Source: a virus
Taxonomy: Duplodnaviria; Heunggongvirae; Uroviricota; Caudoviricetes
Length of the DNA: 12,153 nt
IMG/VR virus record: IMGVR_UViG_2693429719_000002
Location: 1 to 12,153 of that record
Direction: 5' to 3' (one strand)
Part shown: positions 1 to 12,064 of the stretch, piece by piece
How the letters are laid out: every line of letters begins with the position of its first letter
Position numbering within the stretch: position 1 is the first letter of the stretch
The notes under the pieces: model-generated
Database searches by the model: none
Told to the model about the DNA's origin: nothing
What the model saw: only the letters and a program-made list of their open reading frames with translations
Made by a program: the position numbers and the translations under genes

Positions 1-314
1 TGGGCGTAATTCCGGGAAAGCTGCTCATACGAGACACCCAGCCCGGCAGCGATATACCGCAGCAGTGACTGCTCAAACACGGAGTAGCCGTTATCCGTAT
101 CCTGAGCCGTCTGCAGGTTCAGTGAGTCACCCGGCATCAGGTGCGGTACTTTTGCGCCTCCCAGCCGGACCGGCGCTGCGGCGTAATACGCGGCAATTTC
201 ACCAATCCAGCCGGTCAGCCTTTCCCGCTGCTCCTGACTGTTCGCGCCCAGAATAAAATCCATCGCTGACTGCGTATCCAGCTCACTCTCAATGGTGGCG
301 GCATACATCGCCTT
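1..314 (-). CDS. B: Lambda-type portal protein, C-terminal portion (begins ...KAMYAATIESELDTQSAMDFILGAN...); separated from its N-terminal portion by the insert; runs off the window start
   Basis: Minus-strand translation from 314 downward is open to position 1 and reads as the direct continuation of the portal sequence that stops at the right junction (SAIVKA | MYAAT...). Matches my recollection of lambda gpB; not listed in the ORF track because it touches the window edge. Confidence 0.85.
302..314. other. attL junction: core ATCGCCTT (307..314) within CATACATCGCCTT
   Basis: Same 13-mer with one mismatch occurs at 11230..11242 (CATAAATCGCCTT). The identical 8 bp at 307..314 and 11235..11242 is the likely crossover core. 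Confidence 0.7.
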
Positions 315-388
315 TATGAAAAGACAGGAAAAAATAAAATTTAAAAACAGTACATTACGAATACTCAAACCTATCGTTTAAAGGAGTC

Positions 389-1996: not shown

Positions 1997-2380
1997 TCAA
2001 CCAATCAACTTATAGCGACCATCCCGCGCATTGCGACGTACACGCTCAATCTTGAGGCATAGCGCCGCATCTGGCTTTTTTGGGACAGGTACGCGGCAAT
2101 ATTCAGAAGCTCGAGGAATATTGTTTATCCAGTCGATCACTTCACTTAAATACCAGGCCTTACGCCCTTCCGTAACCTGTACGCGTTCGGGGAACTCTCC
2201 GCGAGCCTCAAGGTTTAGCAATGTGCGACGGCTAAGGGTAGTAAGTTCCATCACCTGATTCATATCAACAAGGCGTTCACTTAAACGCATTTTGTCAGCA
2301 ATAGCCTTTAATTCCTCTACTGCTGGATCCGGATACATCATTTCGGCAATTGGCTTAAGGTCATTGTAATGATTCTGCAT
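1997..2380 (-). CDS. AlpA-family helix-turn-helix protein with a ~40-aa N-terminal extension (second AlpA-like gene of the island)
   Basis: Contains MNQVMELTTLSRRTLLNLEARGEFPERVQVTEGRKAWYLSEVIDWI, typical of AlpA/excisionase-type HTH. GGGGG RBS 5 nt upstream of ATG; starts 11 nt after the decoration gene stop. Confidence 0.65.
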   Translation of the reverse strand: MQNHYNDLKPIAEMMYPDPAVEELKAIADKMRLSERLVDMNQVMELTTLSRRTLLNLEARGEFPERVQVTEGRKAWYLSEVIDWINNIPRASEYCRVPVPKKPDAALCLKIERVRRNARDGRYKLIG

Positions 2381-4000: not shown

Positions 4001-4423
4001 TTAAAACGGTATATTATCGCCGTACGGATCATCATTCCCCGACTGTTGTTTTGCCCTGTTCAGTGCGTCAGTGGCCTGCCCCTGCTGGCCTTTTTTGCCG
4101 CCCGGTCGCGCCGTTCGCGCACTGATTACGCTGTCTGCGATAACCTGCCAGCCCCGCCGCGTTTCGCCGTTCTGGCCTGTCCACTGGCTTACCTGCATGT
4201 TACCCGCCACGCTCACCAGTTCGCCTTTGTGGTGTCTGGCCAGTGCGTCAGCCTGTCTGCCAAACGCCAGGACGGATAACCACATCGTCGCCGTTCCGTC
4301 ATCTGCCTGGCTGCACGGCAGGGGAACCGCCATACTCGCCATCGCCATTTGTGTCCCTTTGCTGGTGGTCTTTAACTGCGGGTCAGCCACCAGCCGCCCG
4401 TAAGCCGCTATCTGTGCTGTCAT
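4001..4423 (-). CDS. ssb: Single-stranded DNA-binding protein (SSB-like)
   Basis: OB-fold region similar to E. coli SSB (WLSVLAFGRQADALARH..GELVSVAGNMQVSQWTGQNGETR vs [43 protein letters not shown]). Acidic C-terminal tail ends ...DDPYGDNIPF, like DDDIPF. Confidence 0.8.
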   Translation of the reverse strand: MTAQIAAYGRLVADPQLKTTSKGTQMAMASMAVPLPCSQADDGTATMWLSVLAFGRQADALARHHKGELVSVAGNMQVSQWTGQNGETRRGWQVIADSVISARTARPGGKKGQQGQATDALNRAKQQSGNDDPYGDNIPF

Positions 4424-4665
4424 GCTGTCTGCTCTCCGGTTTTAACGTTGATGGTTGTCACCTGTTCCGCTTCGGCAATCTCCCGTTCTGTCAGCGTGGC
4501 AAAGTTTGCCGCCGTCGTGGCCATGAATGCGCTTATCAGTTCGGGATGTGCTTTCGCGTATCCCTCTCCCGCGTTGCGGTCGATGATTTTTATCGCCACC
4601 CTCAGCCAGTGTTCTGTCAAATCAAGGGCGTGAGATTGTGGTTTTTTTGCGTGCTTCGTTGTCAC
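4420..4665 (-). CDS. Hypothetical protein (81 aa, GTG start), translationally coupled to ssb
   Basis: GAGGT lies 7 nt upstream of the GTG; stop overlaps the ssb start (ATGA). No family recognised. Confidence 0.5.
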   Translation of the reverse strand: MTTKHAKKPQSHALDLTEHWLRVAIKIIDRNAGEGYAKAHPELISAFMATTAANFATLTEREIAEAEQVTTINVKTGEQTA

Positions 4666-4952: not shown

Positions 4953-6758
4953 TTAATTTTTTCCATCGTCATTTGTGACCGATGTACATGATGGCATCCA
5001 GTCTTCTGAATCCTCTGTCAGGGTCACATTTGAACGCAAACCGTGCTTCGTTTTCCGTTTCATATACTCCCTGCCATATTCCGCCATTGCCCCCGGCATA
5101 TCTTTACCGAAGCGCGTCAGTGTTACAGGTTTACCGAATCCGTGTGCCCTCATATATGCCAGATAGGCGTGATAAAGATACCTGCGCGGACTGAACGGAA
5201 TAATTTCGGCATTACCCACTAACAGACCATCACACATTACCGACGACATGAGATAGCCGCAGAAGTCCACCAGCGAATCGCCCTCGCGTTTTATCACCAG
5301 AGCTTCTTCTGATTTCTGCTGCTCATACAGCAGGCGTTTAGCTTCGTCCTGGTCAGAAAAACGAGTAAGCAGGTGGCGAATCACAACCGCCAGCTCTCCT
5401 TCTATTTTTTCTGCCAGCATGGGGTCGCGTTCGTTTTCCGGTACAACCTCCGAAAAATTGAATATCACCCGACGACGTGAGATCCCCCCGCTGCGGTCAC
5501 TGAATGACATGGCGTTATTGTTCACCGCCAGCACGACCGCCTGAATGCGTGTTGAGTAGGGAGCTTTATGTTTCGGGTCAATTGCCACCTTGTCACCGCC
5601 TGTAATGGCCTTAATTCCTGCACCATCACCAGCGTAGCGGGTCATATCCGGCATGATAATCAGCGAAAAGCCAACCACTAACGCGCGTTCCCTGGCATCT
5701 TCCAGCGCCTTCATGCTTGCCGACACCGTGTTGGCCTTACCCGCCAGCATGGTGCAAATCTCCGCCATTACGCTTTTACCGCTTCCACCCGGCCCCGTTA
5801 CCTCAAGAAATAACTGCCAGTCGTATCGGTTCGCCAGCACCATGAATAACGCCGCCAGTACGCGATCCGCTTTACGGTCATTCTCTGCCACCGAACGGCG
5901 CAACCATTTCCAGAAATTCGGCGCATGCGTTGCCAGCGTTTCCCCCTCTGCTGGTGGGCTGAACGGTAATTCACTGGCAATTAACAGCCAGTCGTTTTTG
6001 TCATGCTCCCGAAAATCGCCTGTCCGGGTATCAAAAACACCGTTACTGAATCCAATCAGGTTACGGGCGGTATTTCCCATTACGGGCAAACTTAACTTCA
6101 TGGTATCGACCGCCGATTTGATGGCGTTCTGCGAATAACTGATCTCCGCATCAATAAAAATCTGCGCCATAGCCCGCTGTAACTCTTTATCCTGTACCGG
6201 CTCCCATACAACGCCGTTGTAGTGGTGAACTGTGTCAGAGTCCGCATTGATTGCCAGTTCACCGCCATAATGGGCCAGGAGAACTTCGCCGCGCTGGCTT
6301 GCTCCCATCTGGTTAAGCGCCAGTGGTGCGGCGCTGTCTTCTGTTTTTTTCTTAACAGGAAGCTGAATAACCAGACCATCAGAAAGATTCTGGCGCTCAC
6401 GCTCCAGATATTCGCGCCACTCCTCCCGCTTCTGGCTGTGCATTCCCTCAGGGTAATAATTCGCATCCCGTACACCTGCCGCCGCCAGCTTTTGCCCGAT
6501 GGCATTAATATTTGACGGCTTGATGTGGCCTGCCTTGTACAGCCGGACACAATAGCGACCATCGTCGATAATTTTCAGGTCTGCCAGTTCGTCAAGCTGG
6601 CTGTCTCCCAGCCATACAGGCGGAACATTGTCACCAGCAAGTCGCCCGTCCTGCTCCTGCCATTGTTTCGCGTGCGCCCAGGCATCACTACCCGCAAAAA
6701 TAATGACTTCGGTCATTTTGTCGTGCGGCTGTTTTTTTAAGTTCGGTGCCAGTTTCAT
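4953..6758 (-). CDS. Primase-helicase / replication initiator with P-loop NTPase domain
   Basis: 601-aa ORF with Walker A motif (EVTGPGGSGKSVMAEICTML) and an N-terminal primase-like region. Usual position for a satellite replication protein, followed by iterons. Confidence 0.85.
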   Translation of the reverse strand: MKLAPNLKKQPHDKMTEVIIFAGSDAWAHAKQWQEQDGRLAGDNVPPVWLGDSQLDELADLKIIDDGRYCVRLYKAGHIKPSNINAIGQKLAAAGVRDANYYPEGMHSQKREEWREYLERERQNLSDGLVIQLPVKKKTEDSAAPLALNQMGASQRGEVLLAHYGGELAINADSDTVHHYNGVVWEPVQDKELQRAMAQIFIDAEISYSQNAIKSAVDTMKLSLPVMGNTARNLIGFSNGVFDTRTGDFREHDKNDWLLIASELPFSPPAEGETLATHAPNFWKWLRRSVAENDRKADRVLAALFMVLANRYDWQLFLEVTGPGGSGKSVMAEICTMLAGKANTVSASMKALEDARERALVVGFSLIIMPDMTRYAGDGAGIKAITGGDKVAIDPKHKAPYSTRIQAVVLAVNNNAMSFSDRSGGISRRRVIFNFSEVVPENERDPMLAEKIEGELAVVIRHLLTRFSDQDEAKRLLYEQQKSEEALVIKREGDSLVDFCGYLMSSVMCDGLLVGNAEIIPFSPRRYLYHAYLAYMRAHGFGKPVTLTRFGKDMPGAMAEYGREYMKRKTKHGLRSNVTLTEDSEDWMPSCTSVTNDDGKN

Positions 6759-7069
6759 TTTGCCTTTCCCCGTTCACGAATAATTTCACGTACTGCCTTA
6801 ATGCGTTCCATACCTGTAACGCGCATGATTCTGTCGATGTCGCTTAAGTTCGCTGGTGGTGCTTTGCTTACCAGGGTGAATTCACTCTCAAAACGCATAT
6901 GTGACGACACGCAGGGATGCGCATAACCTTCGCGGATATAAGTCACGCGAAAATCGTCAACGGTTTTTATCGTTATTCGTCCGCCGTATTTATCTTTGAA
7001 AATATCGTCGGGGCGGATTTCAGGCCGAGCGGGGCCGCTGGCAGTAAAGCCAGAATTTTTCTTTTTCAT
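6755..7069 (-). CDS. Hypothetical protein (104 aa), translationally coupled to the primase-helicase gene
   Basis: ORF in track; stop overlaps the primase start (ATGA). No family recognised. Confidence 0.55.
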   Translation of the reverse strand: MKKKNSGFTASGPARPEIRPDDIFKDKYGGRITIKTVDDFRVTYIREGYAHPCVSSHMRFESEFTLVSKAPPANLSDIDRIMRVTGMERIKAVREIIRERGKAK

Positions 7070-7075
7070 GTTTTT

Positions 7076-7294
7076 TTACTCCAGAGGCAGCTTTTTAGCG
7101 GCGAGCTCAATATCAGATGTCAGAGAAACCTGTGTATTTGCCAGGTCTAACAACAAAGAAATAAGAATTTCCTCTCTGCTATCGGATTTATCGGTGCTAA
7201 GGCTGTTCATCCACATATTGACGACTTCCCTGATTTTTTTCGCGGAGTGCAGGGCTTCAAATGCCAGGTCTTCAATATCACGTTTATTTCGCAT
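7076..7294 (-). CDS. Hypothetical protein (72 aa from ATG at 7294)
   Basis: ORF in track; start moved to the internal ATG (MRNKRD) preceded by a GGGGG RBS. Confidence 0.45.
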   Translation of the reverse strand: MRNKRDIEDLAFEALHSAKKIREVVNMWMNSLSTDKSDSREEILISLLLDLANTQVSLTSDIELAAKKLPLE

Positions 7295-7529
7295 AATCGC
7301 CCCCACCATTTTCACAATCAACAATCAGGATGGCTTTAGCCTCATTCAGCGCCATATCAGCGGTAAGCTGCACATATGCCAGCGAATGCGGGATTATCGC
7401 CCCTGTATATTCCGGCTCTCTGGTAATGTGTTTTTCTGCGGTTGCTGCCGTGCATGAAATATCAATCAGCGCGTCCATCAGCGTTCTGATGGCTTCGCCT
7501 GCTGCGTCCGGCGTGTTTTTATTGCACAT
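7284..7529 (-). CDS. Hypothetical protein (81 aa)
   Basis: ORF in track; start overlaps the stop of the upstream 68-aa gene; GGGGG RBS upstream. Confidence 0.45.
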   Translation of the reverse strand: MCNKNTPDAAGEAIRTLMDALIDISCTAATAEKHITREPEYTGAIIPHSLAYVQLTADMALNEAKAILIVDCENGGGDYAK

Positions 7530-7725
7530 GGCGCACCCCCTGACGAATACGGGCGGCGAATACCATCACACAGCCATCAGGAGATTGCTGGCGTGCTTCC
7601 TGTTCGCTGGTGGCCTCGATGGTAATCACGCGCGGCTGTGCCGTGCTCAGGGCGATAAAACGCCAGATGTATTTATTCAGGTTGTACGAGTCCCGCCCTT
7701 GCGGGTGTGTGGTATGATTTAACAT
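7522..7725 (-). CDS. Hypothetical protein (68 aa), first gene of the leftward operon
   Basis: Corresponds to the last 68 codons of the 411-aa track ORF 7519..8754. ATG at 7725 has GAGG 5 nt upstream; the upstream part of that long ORF is judged spurious. Confidence 0.5.
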
Positions 7726-7823
7726 AGCTACCTCGATACTTCTGCTATCGTTGGTGGTTAGAAGCCCCGTTACTGCTCCTACAGTGCGGGGTTTCGTCGT
7801 TTCTGCACCTTGCATTAACAAGG

Positions 7824-7900
7824 TGTAAGTAACTTTATTTATAGGTGGCTTACATGTCAATGCTTTTATGTAAGACTTTTTATGTGTATATTGTCTTACA
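7824..7900. promoter_or_regulatory. Divergent promoter region with two ~31-bp operator-like elements (TGTAAG-N19-CTTACA)
   Basis: TGTAAG at 7824 and 7869, CTTACA at 7849 and 7895. A TTGACA -35 for the leftward operon (reverse complement of 7855..7860) abuts the first element. Confidence 0.5.
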
Positions 7901-7921
7901 CTTTCATTGAGAGGATTACAG

Positions 7922-8227
7922 ATGGCTACAGGTTCAAAAAACGCAAAATCACAATCACTGACAGCTCGGATCCCGCATGATGTTATTGAAGGCATGGAAT
8001 CCGTAAAACTGGACGGTGAAAGCAACGCCGGATTCATCGTAACCGCCATGCGCGGTGAAATCGCCCGCCGCCAGGCAGAAGGAAGCGGAGAAAACCTCCT
8101 GGTTTCTTCGCTCGATGCACTGGCGCAGGTGGAAAAAATCGGAGTCAAAGCAGCCGAGGAGATCGGGCAACTCATCACCGTCGCGCGTGAAGAACTCCAG
8201 CGTCGCAAGGCCAAAGAGCAGGAGTAA
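7922..8227 (+). CDS. Small regulatory protein, possibly ribbon-helix-helix type (101 aa)
   Basis: ATG at 7922 with GAGAGGA RBS 6 nt upstream. N-terminal SLTARIPHDVIEGMESV resembles an RHH strand-helix motif (weak, by eye). Sits next to the operator-like repeats. Confidence 0.5.
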   Translation: MATGSKNAKSQSLTARIPHDVIEGMESVKLDGESNAGFIVTAMRGEIARRQAEGSGENLLVSSLDALAQVEKIGVKAAEEIGQLITVAREELQRRKAKEQE

Positions 8228-8284
8228 CCATCACCAGCGCCGTGGTGCGACGAACTGTGGCGCACAGGGTTACAGGTATCTACG

Positions 8285-8482
8285 ATGACTGACAAATCAT
8301 TAAAGAAATTATCCTCATCCAGGAAAAAACAACGCAAAAACGCGGTAAGCGAACAAGAACAGGAAAGATTCGCGCCATGTGCGTTTGTCCTTGAGAAGTT
8401 CCTTAACGAGTACAGGCGCACAAAAATGGGATCGCATACCTGGAAAACATCGCAGCATGGCGATGCTAAAGAGCAGGAATAG
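8285..8482 (+). CDS. Hypothetical small basic protein (65 aa)
   Basis: ORF in track; weak RBS. Its last residues and stop context duplicate those of the upstream gene (AKEQE). Confidence 0.35.
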   Translation: MTDKSLKKLSSSRKKQRKNAVSEQEQERFAPCAFVLEKFLNEYRRTKMGSHTWKTSQHGDAKEQE

Positions 8483-8585
8483 CCCACCAGCAAGCCAGCA
8501 CACTGATCACATTGCCAACCGGATGTAATCACGGCATAGTAATCAGCGCTCATGCGTTGGGGATAACGCGCAATTAGTGTTGAAG

Positions 8586-8613
8586 GGCCACCGTAGCGGG
8601 TGGCCTTTGTTTT
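8586..8613 (+). terminator. Rho-independent terminator (GGCCACC-GTAGC-GGGTGGCC + TTTGTTTT)
   Basis: GC-rich hairpin followed by a T-run, about 100 bp downstream of the plus-strand genes. Confidence 0.6.
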
Positions 8614-8666
8614 GCCTGTTATCCGGCAATTGTGGCGCTTCGTCACACGGTTGATATAATTCCCCT

Positions 8667-8740
8667 GCACTGATCCATTTTTTTCGCAGCAGGTTAATTG
8701 TTCGCAAGGGCGCTCCGGCAACGGGGCGCTTTTTGTTTTT
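8667..8740 (+). ncRNA. Candidate small RNA (~75 nt) between an extended -10 promoter and a strong terminator
   Basis: TGATATAAT at 8652..8660; terminator at 8710..8740; no ORF in the interval. Confidence 0.3.
8710..8740 (+). terminator. Rho-independent terminator (8-bp stem with GCAA loop + TTTTTGTTTTT)
   Basis: GCGCTCCG-GCAA-CGGGGCGC followed by an 11-nt T-rich run. Confidence 0.65.
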
Positions 8741-8898
8741 ACCCACCAGCACAATAAAAATCTTCATTTTCCATTTTTGTAAAATTTCATGCTTTCCGGA
8801 TGGCTGGCCATATGTCATTTTTTAGCAGAAGATTTTGCCTTGCTGGTGGATAGCTTCCCGGTCAACACGATGTACCGTATAATCAGCACCGCGTGTGG

Positions 8899-9477
8899 TT
8901 ACTGAATACGCTCACCAAAGTAAAACTCAGGCTGATATTCACGTATCAGCCTTTTTTCTTCTTCCTCCAGCTCACGCTTTTTGCGCTTACATGCCTGTAG
9001 CTCCCTCCCCTTCTCGCTGGCACTTATCCGGTATTGCTCTTTGCGGCGGGAAAAATCCTGTAATGCGCCCCACGGGATACCATAAGCCCCCGTTTTTCTG
9101 ATACCCGGTATCACATTTCTGAATACCCAATTACTGAAACTATGAGCAAATGTGCCAGGCGTCATTGCTTTGCGGCTACGGGCTATTAGTTTGTAGAAAC
9201 CTGACTCAGAGATAATGCTCATATTCTGATTTCCTCCGGGGGTGTAAGTTAAATTTACTCCCTTTTCATCATCATCAAGCATCTGCAACGCCGTACGCGA
9301 ATTGGTCAGTTCCAGCGCAGCGCAGACATCCTTTGCAACAAACCACGGATCGCCGTTCAGATACACCACGCGAACGTTCACACCATCAAAGCGCAGAACG
9401 ACGAGATCACGAATATCGCAGAATTTTTTCACTGGACGAGCGTACCCCTTGCCCGTCACGGCAATATTTTTATTCAT
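8899..9477 (-). CDS. Bro-N domain protein (putative antirepressor-like)
   Basis: Bro-N signature read by eye: VRVVYLNGDPWFVAKDVCAALEL...SESGFYKLIARSRKAM...FSNWVFRNVIPGIRKTGAY. Confidence 0.8.
   Translation of the reverse strand: MNKNIAVTGKGYARPVKKFCDIRDLVVLRFDGVNVRVVYLNGDPWFVAKDVCAALELTNSRTALQMLDDDEKGVNLTYTPGGNQNMSIISESGFYKLIARSRKAMTPGTFAHSFSNWVFRNVIPGIRKTGAYGIPWGALQDFSRRKEQYRISASEKGRELQACKRKKRELEEEEKRLIREYQPEFYFGERIQ
8929..8958 (+). terminator. Plus-strand hairpin + T6 inside the 3' end of the Bro-N coding region (antisense)
   Basis: AGGCTGATA-TTCACG-TATCAGCCT followed by TTTTTT; a TATAAT at 8878..8883 lies upstream. Confidence 0.4.
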
Positions 9478-9494
9478 CGCGTTTTGACCTTATA

Positions 9495-9520
9495 GACAAA
9501 AAACCCCTCGTAATGAGGGG
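9495..9520 (-). terminator. Rho-independent terminator downstream of alpA (CCCCTC-ATTAC-GAGGGG + TTTTTTG on the minus strand)
   Basis: Hairpin and U-tract begin 14 nt after the alpA stop. Confidence 0.6.
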
Positions 9521-9533
9521 CGTTATTTACTGG

Positions 9534-9791
9534 TTATTGCTGTTTTGTTTTTCCAGGTTTCCATCCAGGATGCCACTCACCACGGATCCACGCCTGAACC
9601 TCTGAAAGTCGATAGCCTGCCGCACGTTCGCCGATCTTGATACGTCGCGGGAATTTACCTGCCTGCTCCATTTTCCAGCGTGTTGAGTTTGCCAGCGTGG
9701 TAAGTGCTATGCATTCTTTTTCACGAATGAACCGATCAATGTCCTTCATTGCGCGCAAATCGTTTTCATCCACAAGAGAATAAATTGTCAT
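9534..9791 (-). CDS. alpA: AlpA-family transcriptional regulator / excisionase-like protein
   Basis: 85-aa HTH protein directly downstream of int (start 1 nt after the int stop); GAGGTGG RBS. Confidence 0.8.
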   Translation of the reverse strand: MTIYSLVDENDLRAMKDIDRFIREKECIALTTLANSTRWKMEQAGKFPRRIKIGERAAGYRLSEVQAWIRGEWHPGWKPGKTKQQ

Positions 9792-11182: not shown

Positions 11183-12064
11183 TTAGTGGAGTTGGCGAAC
11201 GATGCGGACAACTACGGTGAGATGATAGACATAAATCGCCTTCACAATGGCGCTCTGCAGCTGCGTGTTCTGCAGCGTGTCGAGCATCTTCATCTGCTCC
11301 ATCACGCTGTAAAACACATTTGCACCGCGGGTCTGCCCGTCCTCCACGGGTTCAAAAACGTGAATGAACGAGGTGCGCCCGCCGGGTAACTCACGGGGCA
11401 TCCATGTCCATTTCTGCGGCATCCAGCCAGGATACCCGTCCTCGCTGACGTAATATCCCAGCGCCGCGCCGCTGTCATTAATCTGCACACCGGCACGGCA
11501 GTTCCGGCTGTCGCCGGTATTGTTCGGGTTGCTGATACGCTTCGGGCTGACCATCCGGAACTGTGTCCGGAACAGTCGCGAGGGACTGGTATCCCAGGTG
11601 GCCTGAACGAACAGTTCACCGTTAAAGGCGTGCATGGCCACACCTTCCCGAATCATCATGGTAAACGTGCGTTTTCGCTCAACGTCAATGCAGCAGCAGT
11701 CATCCTCGGCAAACTCTTTCCATGCCGCTTCAACCTCGCGGGAAAAGGCACGGGCTTCTTCCTCCCCGATGCCCAGATAGCGCCAGCTTGGGCGATGACT
11801 GAGCCGGAAAAAAGATCCGACGATATGATCCTGATGCAGCTGGATGGCGTTGGCGGCATAGCCGTTATTGCGTACCAGATCGTCTGCGCGGGCATTGCCA
11901 CGGGTAAAGTTGGGCAACAGGGCTGCATCCACACTTTCACCCGGTGGGTTCCACGCCCGCAACTGCCCTCCAAATCCGCTGCCACCGCCGTGATAACCGG
12001 CATATTCGCGCAGCGATGTCATGCCGTCCGGCCCCAGAAGGGTGGGAATGGTGGACGTTTTCAT
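11183..12064 (-). CDS. B: Lambda-type portal protein, N-terminal portion; ends in 17 element-derived codons after ...SAIVKA
   Basis: 293-aa ORF starting [34 protein letters not shown], near-identical to remembered lambda gpB. Homology stops at the core, then reads [17 protein letters not shown] and terminates. Confidence 0.9.
11230..11242. other. attR junction: core ATCGCCTT (11235..11242) within CATAAATCGCCTT
   Basis: Direct repeat of 302..314 with one mismatch at the fifth base. Confidence 0.7.

What the first reader, a model, noticed from the sequence alone, without database searches (positions are those of the whole stretch)
6755..7725. Four small overlapping ORFs of unknown function at the head of the leftward operon
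The 68-, 81-, 72- and 104-aa ORFs are tightly stacked with overlapping start/stop codons between the control region and the primase-helicase gene. I recognise no family for any of them. In satellites this position often holds helper-interference or derepression factors, so they are candidates for novel functions.
Basis: inference. Interest (0 to 1): 0.45.

Follow-up and report, generated by a model that had tools for sequence, protein, structure and literature searches.

The report
Small early genes of a PICI satellite
The four stacked small genes are real and sit at the front of the replication operon of an E. coli phage satellite; two belong to named families (the Icd/Kil cell-division-inhibitor family and the RgdR/DUF4222 regulator family) and two are satellite-only proteins of unknown function, so the region is largely ordinary for this kind of element.

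Summary
Four minus-strand ORFs (7725-7519, 68 aa; 7529-7284, 81 aa; 7294-7076, 72 aa; 7069-6755, 104 aa) lie between a control region and a D5-type primase gene. A/B and B/C overlap by 11 nt and D/primase by 4 nt (ATGA); C/D are separated by 6 nt. All four have Shine-Dalgarno-like purine runs and dN/dS of 0.13-0.56. NCBI's annotation calls the same genes in related E. coli loci.

"No recognisable family" is wrong for two of them. ORF A belongs to NF033153 (Icd-like), together with phage P1 Icd and phage P4 Kil. ORF D is DUF4222, the family of the EHEC regulator RgdR, and models as a Tudor/KOW-like barrel. ORF B is a two-helix hairpin from a family restricted to Enterobacteriaceae satellites. 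ORF C belongs to a very small family found in the same slot. B, C and D are absent from 50,697 phage genomes.

The element is an EcCICFT073-type PICI embedded in a lambda-family portal gene. Its left operon mirrors P4's kil-epsilon-orf151-orf106-alpha. No homology between B and P4 epsilon was detected.

Two further points emerged. ORF A's frame stays open for 414 codons upstream, as in P4's nested eta/kil genes. A leader hairpin supported by covariation precedes ORF A.

Verdict: new members of a known kind, modest interest.

The parts
7519..7725 (-). ORF A, 68 aa: Icd/Kil-family protein and first cistron after the leftward promoter
   Evidence: NF033153 1e-19, 70.3 bits against a cut-off of 25. 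phrog_6196 4e-44 and phrog_1743 2e-23. 97% identical to the EcCICFT073 Icd-like protein. Aligns with P1 Icd and P4 Kil. dN/dS 0.13-0.21.
7284..7529 (-). ORF B, 81 aa: two-helix hairpin protein from a satellite-restricted family, function unknown
   Evidence: phrog_5146 7e-26 and phrog_2512 2e-23. 100 homolog clusters, nearly all E. coli and all named 'hypothetical'. AlphaFold2 pLDDT 85, helices 9-37 and 39-73. Only generic hairpin fold matches. dN/dS 0.21-0.42.
7076..7294 (-). ORF C, 72 aa: member of a very small family found in the same slot of other satellites, function unknown
   Evidence: 14 near-identical E. coli clusters. 8 hits among 1.84 billion representative proteins. Distant members sit in the same slot in Pectobacterium loci and in L029. 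dN/dS 0.44 and 0.29.
6755..7069 (-). ORF D, 104 aa: DUF4222 / RgdR-family protein, ATGA-coupled to the primase gene
4953..6758 (-). D5-type primase-helicase, the downstream cistron of the operon
   Evidence: D5_N, DUF5906 and Pox_D5 domains. 50% identical to P4 alpha over 464 aa.
7832..7860 (-). Sigma-70-like leftward promoter (TTGACA-17-TAAAGT)
   Evidence: Consensus scan, 10 of 12 matches. The TTGAC -35 element is conserved in the aligned loci. Function is inferred.
7761..7795 (-). Conserved 5'-leader hairpin upstream of ORF A
   Evidence: MFE fold of the leader -33.8 kcal/mol, z -3.29. In 15 loci from several genera, 87% of cells are paired against 28-49% in slid controls, and 6 pairs change on both sides.
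7824..7900 (.). Two operator-like palindromes: TGTAAG-N19-CTTACA (7824-7854) and an N20 copy (7869-7900). The first overlaps the promoter.
   Evidence: One exact match against 0.01 expected by chance. The N20 copy was read. Other loci carry different repeats at the same place.
7922..8227 (+). Divergently transcribed YlcI/YnfO-family gene, the candidate regulator of the control region
   Evidence: NF041551 7e-20. Annotated as such in related loci.
7519..8763 (-). 414-codon open frame ending in ORF A, comparable to P4 eta with kil nested in it
   Evidence: the frame is open for 259-433 codons in 18 of 26 Icd-like loci. Outside the antisense genes the other two frames carry 4-20 stops each. In other loci its start is coupled to the upstream gene. 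In this window there is no good start.

Best explanation
The four ORFs are the promoter-proximal, translationally coupled accessory cistrons of the early or replication operon of an EcCICFT073-type phage-inducible chromosomal island. The island lies embedded in the portal gene of a lambda-like prophage.

Shown here:
- The ORFs are conserved, under purifying selection, and specific to satellites.
- ORF A is a homolog of phage P1 Icd and phage P4 Kil.
- ORF D belongs to the RgdR/DUF4222 family.
- The gene order parallels P4's kil/eta-epsilon-orf151-orf106-alpha.

Inferred mechanism:
- Transcription starts at the promoter at 7860-7832. That promoter is overlapped by palindromic operators, probably bound by the divergent YlcI/YnfO-type protein. 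Transcription could also read through from the alpA/Bro side along the long open frame.
- ORF A acts as a leader cistron. Its translation, gated by the structured leader, carries ribosomes into B, C, D and the primase through the start/stop overlaps. Its product transiently blocks host cell division, as P1 Icd does.
- ORF D is a small Tudor/KOW-like barrel with a basic helical tail. It acts as a low-specificity transcription co-factor, as reported for RgdR. Because it is always coupled to the replicase gene, it may also assist the replication module.
- ORFs B and C travel together in two diverged satellites. They are small helical proteins that most likely bind and modulate a host or helper protein. 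Their target is unknown.
For: - Element identity: integrase, AlpA, Bro-N, primase, SSB, capsid E, decoration protein and Nu1-type TerS, flanked by lambda-family portal fragments. It has the same architecture as EcCICFT073.
- Real genes: dN/dS below 1; PGAP annotation; 1644 genomes.
- ORF A family. P1 Icd is annotated as an inhibitor of cell division required for ant expression. P4 Kil is the truncated form of Eta and its translation controls termination (PMC10111431, section 20, citing Forti 1999).
- ORF D family and fold. RgdR gives pleiotropic regulation and non-specific DNA binding (PMC3378721). ECs1581 lies directly upstream of the primase ECs1582.
- Coupling: overlaps read. ORF D is ATGA-coupled to three different replicases in related loci.
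- B-C linkage: the two genes are adjacent in L029, where they are 37% and 47% identical to the window copies.
- Satellite specificity: tblastn against 50,697 phage genomes found nothing for B, C or D. It found one hit for A, in a 16.5-kb record with satellite-type gene content.
- Icd-like genes are reported in most PICIs and P4-like elements of Enterobacter cloacae (PMC13612085).
Against: - No function was tested. Cell-division inhibition is transferred from P1 Icd, which is only 38% identical.
- ORF D lacks the RGD motif linked to RgdR activity; it has PDD at that position.
- B's helical hairpin gives no functional clue.
- ORF C was not modelled.
- The P1 and P4 systems use C4/CI antisense RNAs. 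None was found here, even at Rfam E-values up to 10.
- In this window the long frame has no convincing start codon.
Confidence: 0.7

Rival explanations
1. One or more of the ORFs, especially B in the position of P4 epsilon, is a helper-derepression or helper-interference factor acting on the lambdoid helper.
For: The position matches P4, where epsilon (helper derepression) is the cistron after kil. B, C and D are absent from phage genomes and restricted to satellites. There is a weak local similarity between B residues 46-66 and epsilon residues 55-75.
Against: The profile comparison of B with epsilon gives probability 8.7%, and the two fall in different PHROG families. Gram-negative PICIs are reported to be switched on through AlpA, not by derepression (PMC6092414). 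An embedded PICI is induced along with its helper (PMC10111431). The block combines with many different late modules and integration sites, so it is not tied to one helper.
Confidence: 0.15
2. The operon is an abortive-infection or superinfection-exclusion module. [quoted passage not shown]
For: [quoted passage not shown] The long N-terminal extension matches the long open frame seen here.
Against: None of the four ORFs matches PADLOC. The identity of the ECOR61 locus with this block was not checked. The reconstituted effect was described as muted. The module is near-universal in satellites, which fits a core life-cycle role better than a defence cargo (PMC13612085).
Confidence: 0.2
3. ORF D is mainly a host-directed cargo gene: an RgdR-like regulator of virulence and motility genes rather than a satellite life-cycle gene.
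For: RgdR and c1493 activate LEE1/type III secretion and repress motility (PMC3378721). ORF D belongs to the same Pfam family.
Against: ORF D has PDD where RgdR has RGD. The ED1a variant with CGD at that position was inactive on type III secretion (PMC3378721). DUF4222 genes sit in the same ATGA-coupled position in front of the replicase in species and strains without a LEE, which points to a function for the satellite itself.
Confidence: 0.1
4. Some of the ORFs, especially C, are chance open frames and not genes.
For: C has very few homologs and too few substitutions among close loci to judge.
Against: dN/dS for C is 0.44 at 85% identity and 0.29 at 47% identity. Length and position are conserved in a diverged satellite, and distant relatives occupy the same slot in Pectobacterium. 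A, B and D have strong family support.
Confidence: 0.03

Closest known systems
EcCICFT073, the prototype Gram-negative PICI of E. coli CFT073, and its helper-embedded relatives (HE-PICIs)
   Same: The order is the same: int, alpA, Bro zone, divergent YlcI/YnfO gene, Icd-like gene, small ORFs, DUF4222 gene, primase, small ORF, SSB, capsid E, decoration protein. ORF A is 97% identical, ORF B 48% and ORF D 51%. The window element interrupts a lambda-family portal gene, as described for HE-PICIs (PMC10111431).
   Different: CFT073 has four small ORFs between the Icd-like gene and DUF4222, and none resembles ORF C. The integration site differs, and CFT073 carries a PerC gene.
Phage-plasmid P4 left operon (eta/kil, epsilon, orf151, orf106, alpha)
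   Same: ORF A and P4 Kil hit the same NCBIfam and PHROG models. In both, the short gene is nested at the end of a long open frame that begins next to the alpA/vis gene (217 codons in P4, 414 here). In both, a few small overlapping cistrons precede a D5-type primase; the window primase is 50% identical to P4 alpha.
   Different: No CI/C4 or seqA/isrK RNA was detected. B, C and D are not detectably related to epsilon, orf151 or orf106. Here a YlcI/YnfO gene lies antisense inside the long frame. The helper is lambdoid, not P2.
Phage P1 immI operon (c4 RNA, icd, ant1/2)
   Same: P1 Icd (73 aa) belongs to the same family. It shares the IWRF...EDEAR...PDG...F.AR pattern. It is also the first cistron after a structured leader and overlaps the next gene.
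   Different: P1 icd is followed by an antirepressor, not a replication operon, and is controlled by C4 antisense RNA. The two proteins are only 38% identical.
RgdR (ECs1581) of EHEC prophage-like element Sp7/CP-933C (O-island 51)
   Same: Same Pfam family. RgdR is 99 aa against 104 aa for ORF D. Both lie immediately upstream of, and overlap, a primase gene in a satellite.
   Different: 39% identity. The RGD motif is replaced by PDD. ORF D has the alternative C-terminal tail type (PPA.LSDIDRIM...), not the RgdR type.

Membership tests
Icd/Kil family (NCBIfam NF033153, 'host cell division inhibitor Icd-like') | Score above the curated cut-off of the family model | tested here: met
   ORF A 70.3 bits against a cut-off of 25. 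Reference members: P1 Icd 52.6 bits, P4 Kil region 73.9 bits.
Icd/Kil family (NCBIfam NF033153, 'host cell division inhibitor Icd-like') | Shared sequence pattern with the experimentally studied members P1 Icd and P4 Kil | tested here: met
   Alignment A8: F23, A38, E41, A44 and R45 are invariant across ORF A, P1 Icd, P4 Kil and three satellite copies.
Icd/Kil family (NCBIfam NF033153, 'host cell division inhibitor Icd-like') | Short first cistron after the immunity/control region, overlapping the next gene | tested here: met
   The promoter-like site and leader lie upstream, and ORF A overlaps ORF B by 11 nt. P1 icd overlaps ant1. P4 kil overlaps epsilon.
Icd/Kil family (NCBIfam NF033153, 'host cell division inhibitor Icd-like') | Control by a C4/CI-type antisense RNA with target sites in the leader | tested here: not met
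   No C4 or isrK match at gathering score or at E-values up to 10. No complement of the conserved leader sequence elsewhere in the window. A different conserved hairpin is present.
Icd/Kil family (NCBIfam NF033153, 'host cell division inhibitor Icd-like') | Inhibits host cell division or kills the host when expressed | not testable with these tools
   Needs expression in E. coli and microscopy.
DUF4222 / RgdR family (Pfam PF13973) | Score above Pfam's gathering threshold | tested here: met
   64.3 bits against 27, covering profile positions 1-52 of 53. All 120 listed homologs carry PF13973.
DUF4222 / RgdR family (Pfam PF13973) | About 100-aa protein encoded immediately upstream of the replicase gene of a satellite | tested here: met
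   Window: ATGA overlap with the primase. Sakai: ECs1581 then ECs1582. CFT073. Three replicase types. L029.
DUF4222 / RgdR family (Pfam PF13973) | RGD tripeptide at residues 20-22, linked to activation of type III secretion | tested here: not met
   ORF D has P-D-D at that position. RgdR and c1493 have R-G-D. Most homologs have P-G-D.
DUF4222 / RgdR family (Pfam PF13973) | Activates LEE1 and represses motility | not testable with these tools
   Reporter and motility assays are needed (PMC3378721).
P4 epsilon (helper derepression protein), considered for ORF B | Detectable sequence or profile homology to epsilon | tested here: not met
   hhalign probability 8.7%. The two fall in different PHROGs (phrog_5146/2512 against phrog_10016/3688).
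P4 epsilon (helper derepression protein), considered for ORF B | Second cistron of the left operon, overlapping the kil stop | tested here: met
P4 epsilon (helper derepression protein), considered for ORF B | Binds and inactivates the helper's immunity repressor | not testable with these tools
   Needs binding or induction assays.
Gram-negative PICI, helper-embedded type (HE-PICI) | int plus alpA, a Bro zone, a primase/SSB replication zone and a late zone with packaging genes, in this order, in about 10-15 kb | tested here: met
   The four-zone definition is in PMC10111431, section 20.
Gram-negative PICI, helper-embedded type (HE-PICI) | [quoted passage not shown] | tested here: met
   A lambda-family portal N-terminal fragment lies at 11183-12064. 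In the closest E. coli loci the two portal fragments flank the element and are followed by the head-tail joining and terminase genes.
Known anti-phage defence systems (PADLOC-DB 2.0) | Match to any model of a defence-system component | tested here: not met
   No hit at E-values up to 0.1 for A, B, C, D, the YlcI-like protein or the 81-aa ORF at 4420-4665.

The most novel reading that the evidence does not exclude
PICIs of Enterobacterales may run a P4-like control of their replication operon by translation of nested genes, but without a CI/C4 RNA. In this reading, a long eta-like frame that starts coupled to the alpA/Bro genes runs antisense through the YlcI/YnfO gene and ends in the Icd/Kil cistron. 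Together with a covarying leader hairpin that may occlude the start codon, it decides whether ribosomes and RNA polymerase reach the primase. Within that operon, the linked B-C pair and the Tudor/KOW-like DUF4222 protein would be uncharacterised host- or helper-targeting factors; DUF4222 might be an RNA-polymerase-binding co-factor.
Probability: 0.25. Interest if true: 0.55.

Novelty: new member of a known kind. Interest (0 to 1): 0.3.

Why it matters
These small genes occur, in whole or in part, in about 30% of complete E. coli genomes and in satellites of many Enterobacterales. Even so, only RgdR has been studied experimentally, and that work addressed virulence gene control. Three links made here give concrete hypotheses for genes usually drawn as white boxes on PICI maps:
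- the Icd-like gene is the same family as P4 Kil and P1 Icd;
- DUF4222/RgdR is predicted to have a Tudor/KOW-type fold;
- B and C travel together in two diverged satellites.

The work also shows that the PHROG label 'transcriptional repressor' for this family is inherited from an obsolete P4 annotation. None of this changes the overall picture: the region is a typical, mosaic accessory segment of a known kind of satellite.

Tried and rejected
- Sequence search of all four proteins against PDB chains: nothing below E = 0.2. The weak HicB hit for B (E = 0.24) was not supported by the fold, which is a plain helical hairpin.
- Fold search of B against PDB and viral models: only generic hairpins such as ATP synthase c subunits and DesK, none at E of 0.001 or below.
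- B as an epsilon homolog: rejected.
- C related to CFT073's fourth small ORF or to P4 orf151: rejected.
- P4/P1-type immunity RNA: no Rfam C4 or isrK hit. No complementary partner for the conserved leader sequence. The repeat search of 7400-9600 gave only short, probably chance pairs.
- Defence-system models: none.
- The 414-codon frame as a real domain-bearing protein: no Pfam domain upstream of the Icd-like part. Its translation is Cys/Ser-rich and dictated by the antisense genes and by terminator hairpins. I therefore treat it as a frame kept open for translation, not as a folded protein. The stop-count test is partly circular, because the region was defined by the open frame. The stronger evidence is its recurrence in 18 of 26 loci and the coupled start codons.
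- Forti et al. 1999 (PMC94026) is not held in the library. Statements about P4 eta/kil rest on the summary in PMC10111431.
Full report
**What is there**

The window is an E. coli contig: a protein 100% identical to ORF B is recorded on a 12,153-bp E. coli contig. It carries a complete phage satellite on the minus strand. In order, it has:
- integrase (11034-9793);
- AlpA (9791-9534);
- a Bro-N protein (9477-8899);
- a divergently transcribed YlcI/YnfO-family gene (7922-8227, plus strand);
- the four small ORFs of the finding;
- a D5-type primase-helicase (6758-4953);
- an 81-aa ORF and SSB;
- a lambda-E-type capsid gene and a head-decoration gene;
- a second AlpA-like gene and a Nu1-type small terminase.

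The right end of the window (11183-12064) encodes the N-terminal part of a lambda-family portal protein. In the closest E. coli chromosomes the element is flanked by two portal pseudogene fragments inside a lambdoid prophage. It is therefore a helper-embedded PICI of the kind described by Tommasini et al. (PMC10111431), with the architecture of the model island EcCICFT073.

**Checking the observation**

The four ORFs are at the stated coordinates. A and B overlap by 11 nt, B and C by 11 nt, and D and the primase gene by 4 nt (ATGA). C and D are separated by 6 nt. Each start has a purine-rich Shine-Dalgarno-like run upstream.

Against six E. coli loci carrying the same block, dN/dS is 0.13-0.21 for A, 0.28-0.42 for B and 0.16-0.27 for D. 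C has too few changes in those loci to judge. Against more distant copies, C gives 0.44 and 0.29. PGAP annotates the same four genes in these loci. Parts of the 1.4-kb region match 1644 of 5426 complete E. coli genomes, though only 24 genomes match over at least 80% of it. The ORFs are real genes.

**ORF A**

ORF A passes the NCBIfam model NF033153, 'host cell division inhibitor Icd-like' (1e-19), and is 97% identical to the corresponding EcCICFT073 protein. I tested the two experimentally studied proteins directly. P1 Icd scores 3.4e-14 against the same model. The C-terminal 65 residues of the P4 ORF deposited as 'cI gene product' score 7.8e-21 and fall into phrog_1743, as does ORF A. That P4 region is the kil/eta region. 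The three proteins align with a common pattern.

The PHROG label 'transcriptional repressor' for these families most likely comes from that old P4 annotation. P4 immunity is now attributed to the CI RNA (PMC10111431, section 20).

In P1, icd is the first cistron behind the C4 RNA targets, overlaps ant1, and is annotated as 'apparently required for expression of ant'. In P4, Kil is the short form of Eta, and translation of the two nested genes controls termination (PMC10111431, citing Forti 1999).

**An eta-like long frame**

ORF A's reading frame stays open for 414 codons upstream, to 8763. It runs antisense through the YlcI/YnfO gene and the next plus-strand ORF.

The same holds in 18 of 26 Icd-like loci gathered from E. 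coli, Klebsiella, Enterobacter, Rahnella, Rosenbergiella and others (259-433 codons). P4's frame is open for 217 codons.

The stretches over the antisense genes are in the register where third codon positions coincide, which favours open shadow frames. Outside those genes, however, the other two frames carry 4-20 stops each.

In many loci the first ATG or GTG of the long frame overlaps the stop codon of the upstream alpA/Bro-zone gene and has a GGAGG in front. In a 16.5-kb record from an induced prophage, whose gene content is satellite-type, the depositors annotated the long ORF itself.

The translated sequence has no domain and looks dictated by the other strand and by hairpins. I therefore read it as a frame kept open for ribosome passage, as proposed for P4 eta, not as a folded protein. 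In this particular window the frame has no convincing start codon, so the arrangement may be partly decayed here.

**Leader and control region**

A TTGACA-17-TAAAGT promoter-like site lies at 7860-7832, and its -35 element is conserved across loci. Two palindromes overlap or flank it: TGTAAG-N19-CTTACA at 7824-7854 and an N20 copy at 7869-7900. Other loci carry different repeats at the same place. This suggests operators specific to each locus's divergent YlcI/YnfO-type protein.

The roughly 100-nt leader folds well (z -3.29). Its central hairpin (7795-7761) is supported by compensatory changes in 15 loci: 87% of cells are paired against 28-49% in slid controls, and 0 of 500 shuffles reach the observed value. 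No C4/CI-type RNA was found.

**ORF D**

ORF D is a DUF4222 protein (7.6e-18). The family includes RgdR (ECs1581) of the EHEC element CP-933C/Sp7 and c1493 of CFT073. Both activate LEE1/type III secretion and repress motility, and RgdR binds DNA non-specifically (PMC3378721). ORF D is 39% identical to ECs1581 and 51% identical to c1493, and it has PDD where RgdR has the RGD motif.

ECs1581 also lies directly before the primase gene of its element. The same A-B-C-D block is joined, always with D overlapping the next start, to three different replicases: D5-type primase, a DUF927 protein and a RepA helicase.

**ORFs B and C**

B has about 100 homolog clusters, almost all in E. coli and all named 'hypothetical'. 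It matches two PHROGs of unknown function. It models confidently as a two-helix hairpin (pLDDT 85) with only generic structural neighbours.

C has 14 near-identical clusters. An exhaustive HMMER pass over 1.84 billion representative proteins gave only 8 hits. Distant relatives sharing an 'MW' motif occupy the same slot in Pectobacterium satellites and in a metagenomic satellite, L029. In L029 the order is Icd-like, an inserted recombinase-like gene, B-like, C-like, a 66-aa ORF, DUF4222, primase. That order is kept at 34-47% protein identity, and B and C again overlap.

B, C and D have no tblastn match in 50,697 phage genomes and none in PADLOC.

The operon parallels P4's kil/eta-epsilon-orf151-orf106-alpha, and the primase is 50% identical to alpha. 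Beyond A/Kil, however, none of the small proteins is detectably related to its P4 counterpart.

The slot between the Icd-like gene and DUF4222 is variable: one ORF in GZEC065, two here, three in Sakai and in strain 10, four in CFT073. A role in helper derepression or interference therefore remains an untested analogy. [quoted passage not shown] I could not check whether that locus is the same block.

**Verdict**

The claim of no recognisable family is refuted for A and D. The functional guess is neither confirmed nor excluded. This is a typical accessory segment of a known kind of satellite, with two uncharacterised small-protein families and a P4-like nested-gene and leader arrangement that deserves a note. 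Interest is modest.

Noticed in passing
window 11183-12064 (portal N-terminal fragment); window 1-317 (other portal fragment, by comparison with L002 2535-3317): The whole satellite sits inside, and co-oriented with, a lambda-family portal gene of a prophage. This is the helper-embedded PICI configuration described in PMC10111431. The attachment sites were not mapped.
   Followed up: partly
window 7519-8763, minus strand: The Icd-like frame stays open for 414 codons and runs antisense through the YlcI/YnfO gene. The same is seen in 18 of 26 loci from several genera. In many of them the start codon overlaps the stop of the upstream alpA/Bro-zone gene, as with P4 eta/kil. In this window no good start codon is present.
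   Followed up: partly
window 7761-7795, minus strand (leader of ORF A); also 7730-7755 and 7806-7825: A leader hairpin is conserved in 15 satellite loci with compensatory base changes. It is followed by a conserved CUUCUAACCA whose CCA is predicted to pair with the UGG of the AUGG start in most loci. It matches no Rfam family.
   Followed up: partly
window 7824-7854 and 7869-7900: There are two palindromes, TGTAAG-N19/20-CTTACA, and one covers the leftward promoter. Other loci have different repeats at the same position, as expected for immunity-specific operators of the divergent YlcI/YnfO-type protein.
   Followed up: partly
L001, L021 (primase); L022-L024 (DUF927 protein); L025 (RepA helicase): The same A-B-C-D block is fused by an ATGA overlap to three unrelated replicase genes in different E. 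coli satellites. The recombination junction therefore lies exactly at the D stop / replicase start.
   Followed up: partly
window 7076-7294 compared with L001 and L021-L025: ORF C DNA is almost invariant (dS 0.02-0.04) in loci where the adjacent ORF B has dS 0.13-0.9. This suggests recent spread of the C segment by recombination, or an extra constraint at the nucleotide level.
   Followed up: no
PHROG families phrog_6196, phrog_1743, phrog_6928; L020 (P4) 8168-8584: The PHROG label 'transcriptional repressor' for Icd/Kil-like proteins appears to be inherited from the obsolete GenBank annotation of a P4 'cI gene product' ORF. P4 immunity is now attributed to an RNA, so the label is misleading.
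   Followed up: yes
window 8285-8482, plus strand: A 65-aa ORF lies downstream of the YlcI/YnfO gene and is conserved in L002 and CFT073 (motif ERFAPCAF.LE.FL.E.R). It has no family hit and is followed by two terminator-like hairpins at 8583-8608 and 8706-8733.
   Followed up: no
window 1997-2380, minus strand: A second AlpA-domain protein (127 aa) lies in the late zone between the decoration gene and the small terminase gene, away from the int-alpA pair.
   Followed up: no
L029 3892-4770: In a diverged satellite, a 292-aa tyrosine-recombinase-like gene is inserted between the Icd-like gene and the B-like gene, inside the otherwise conserved small-ORF series.
   Followed up: no
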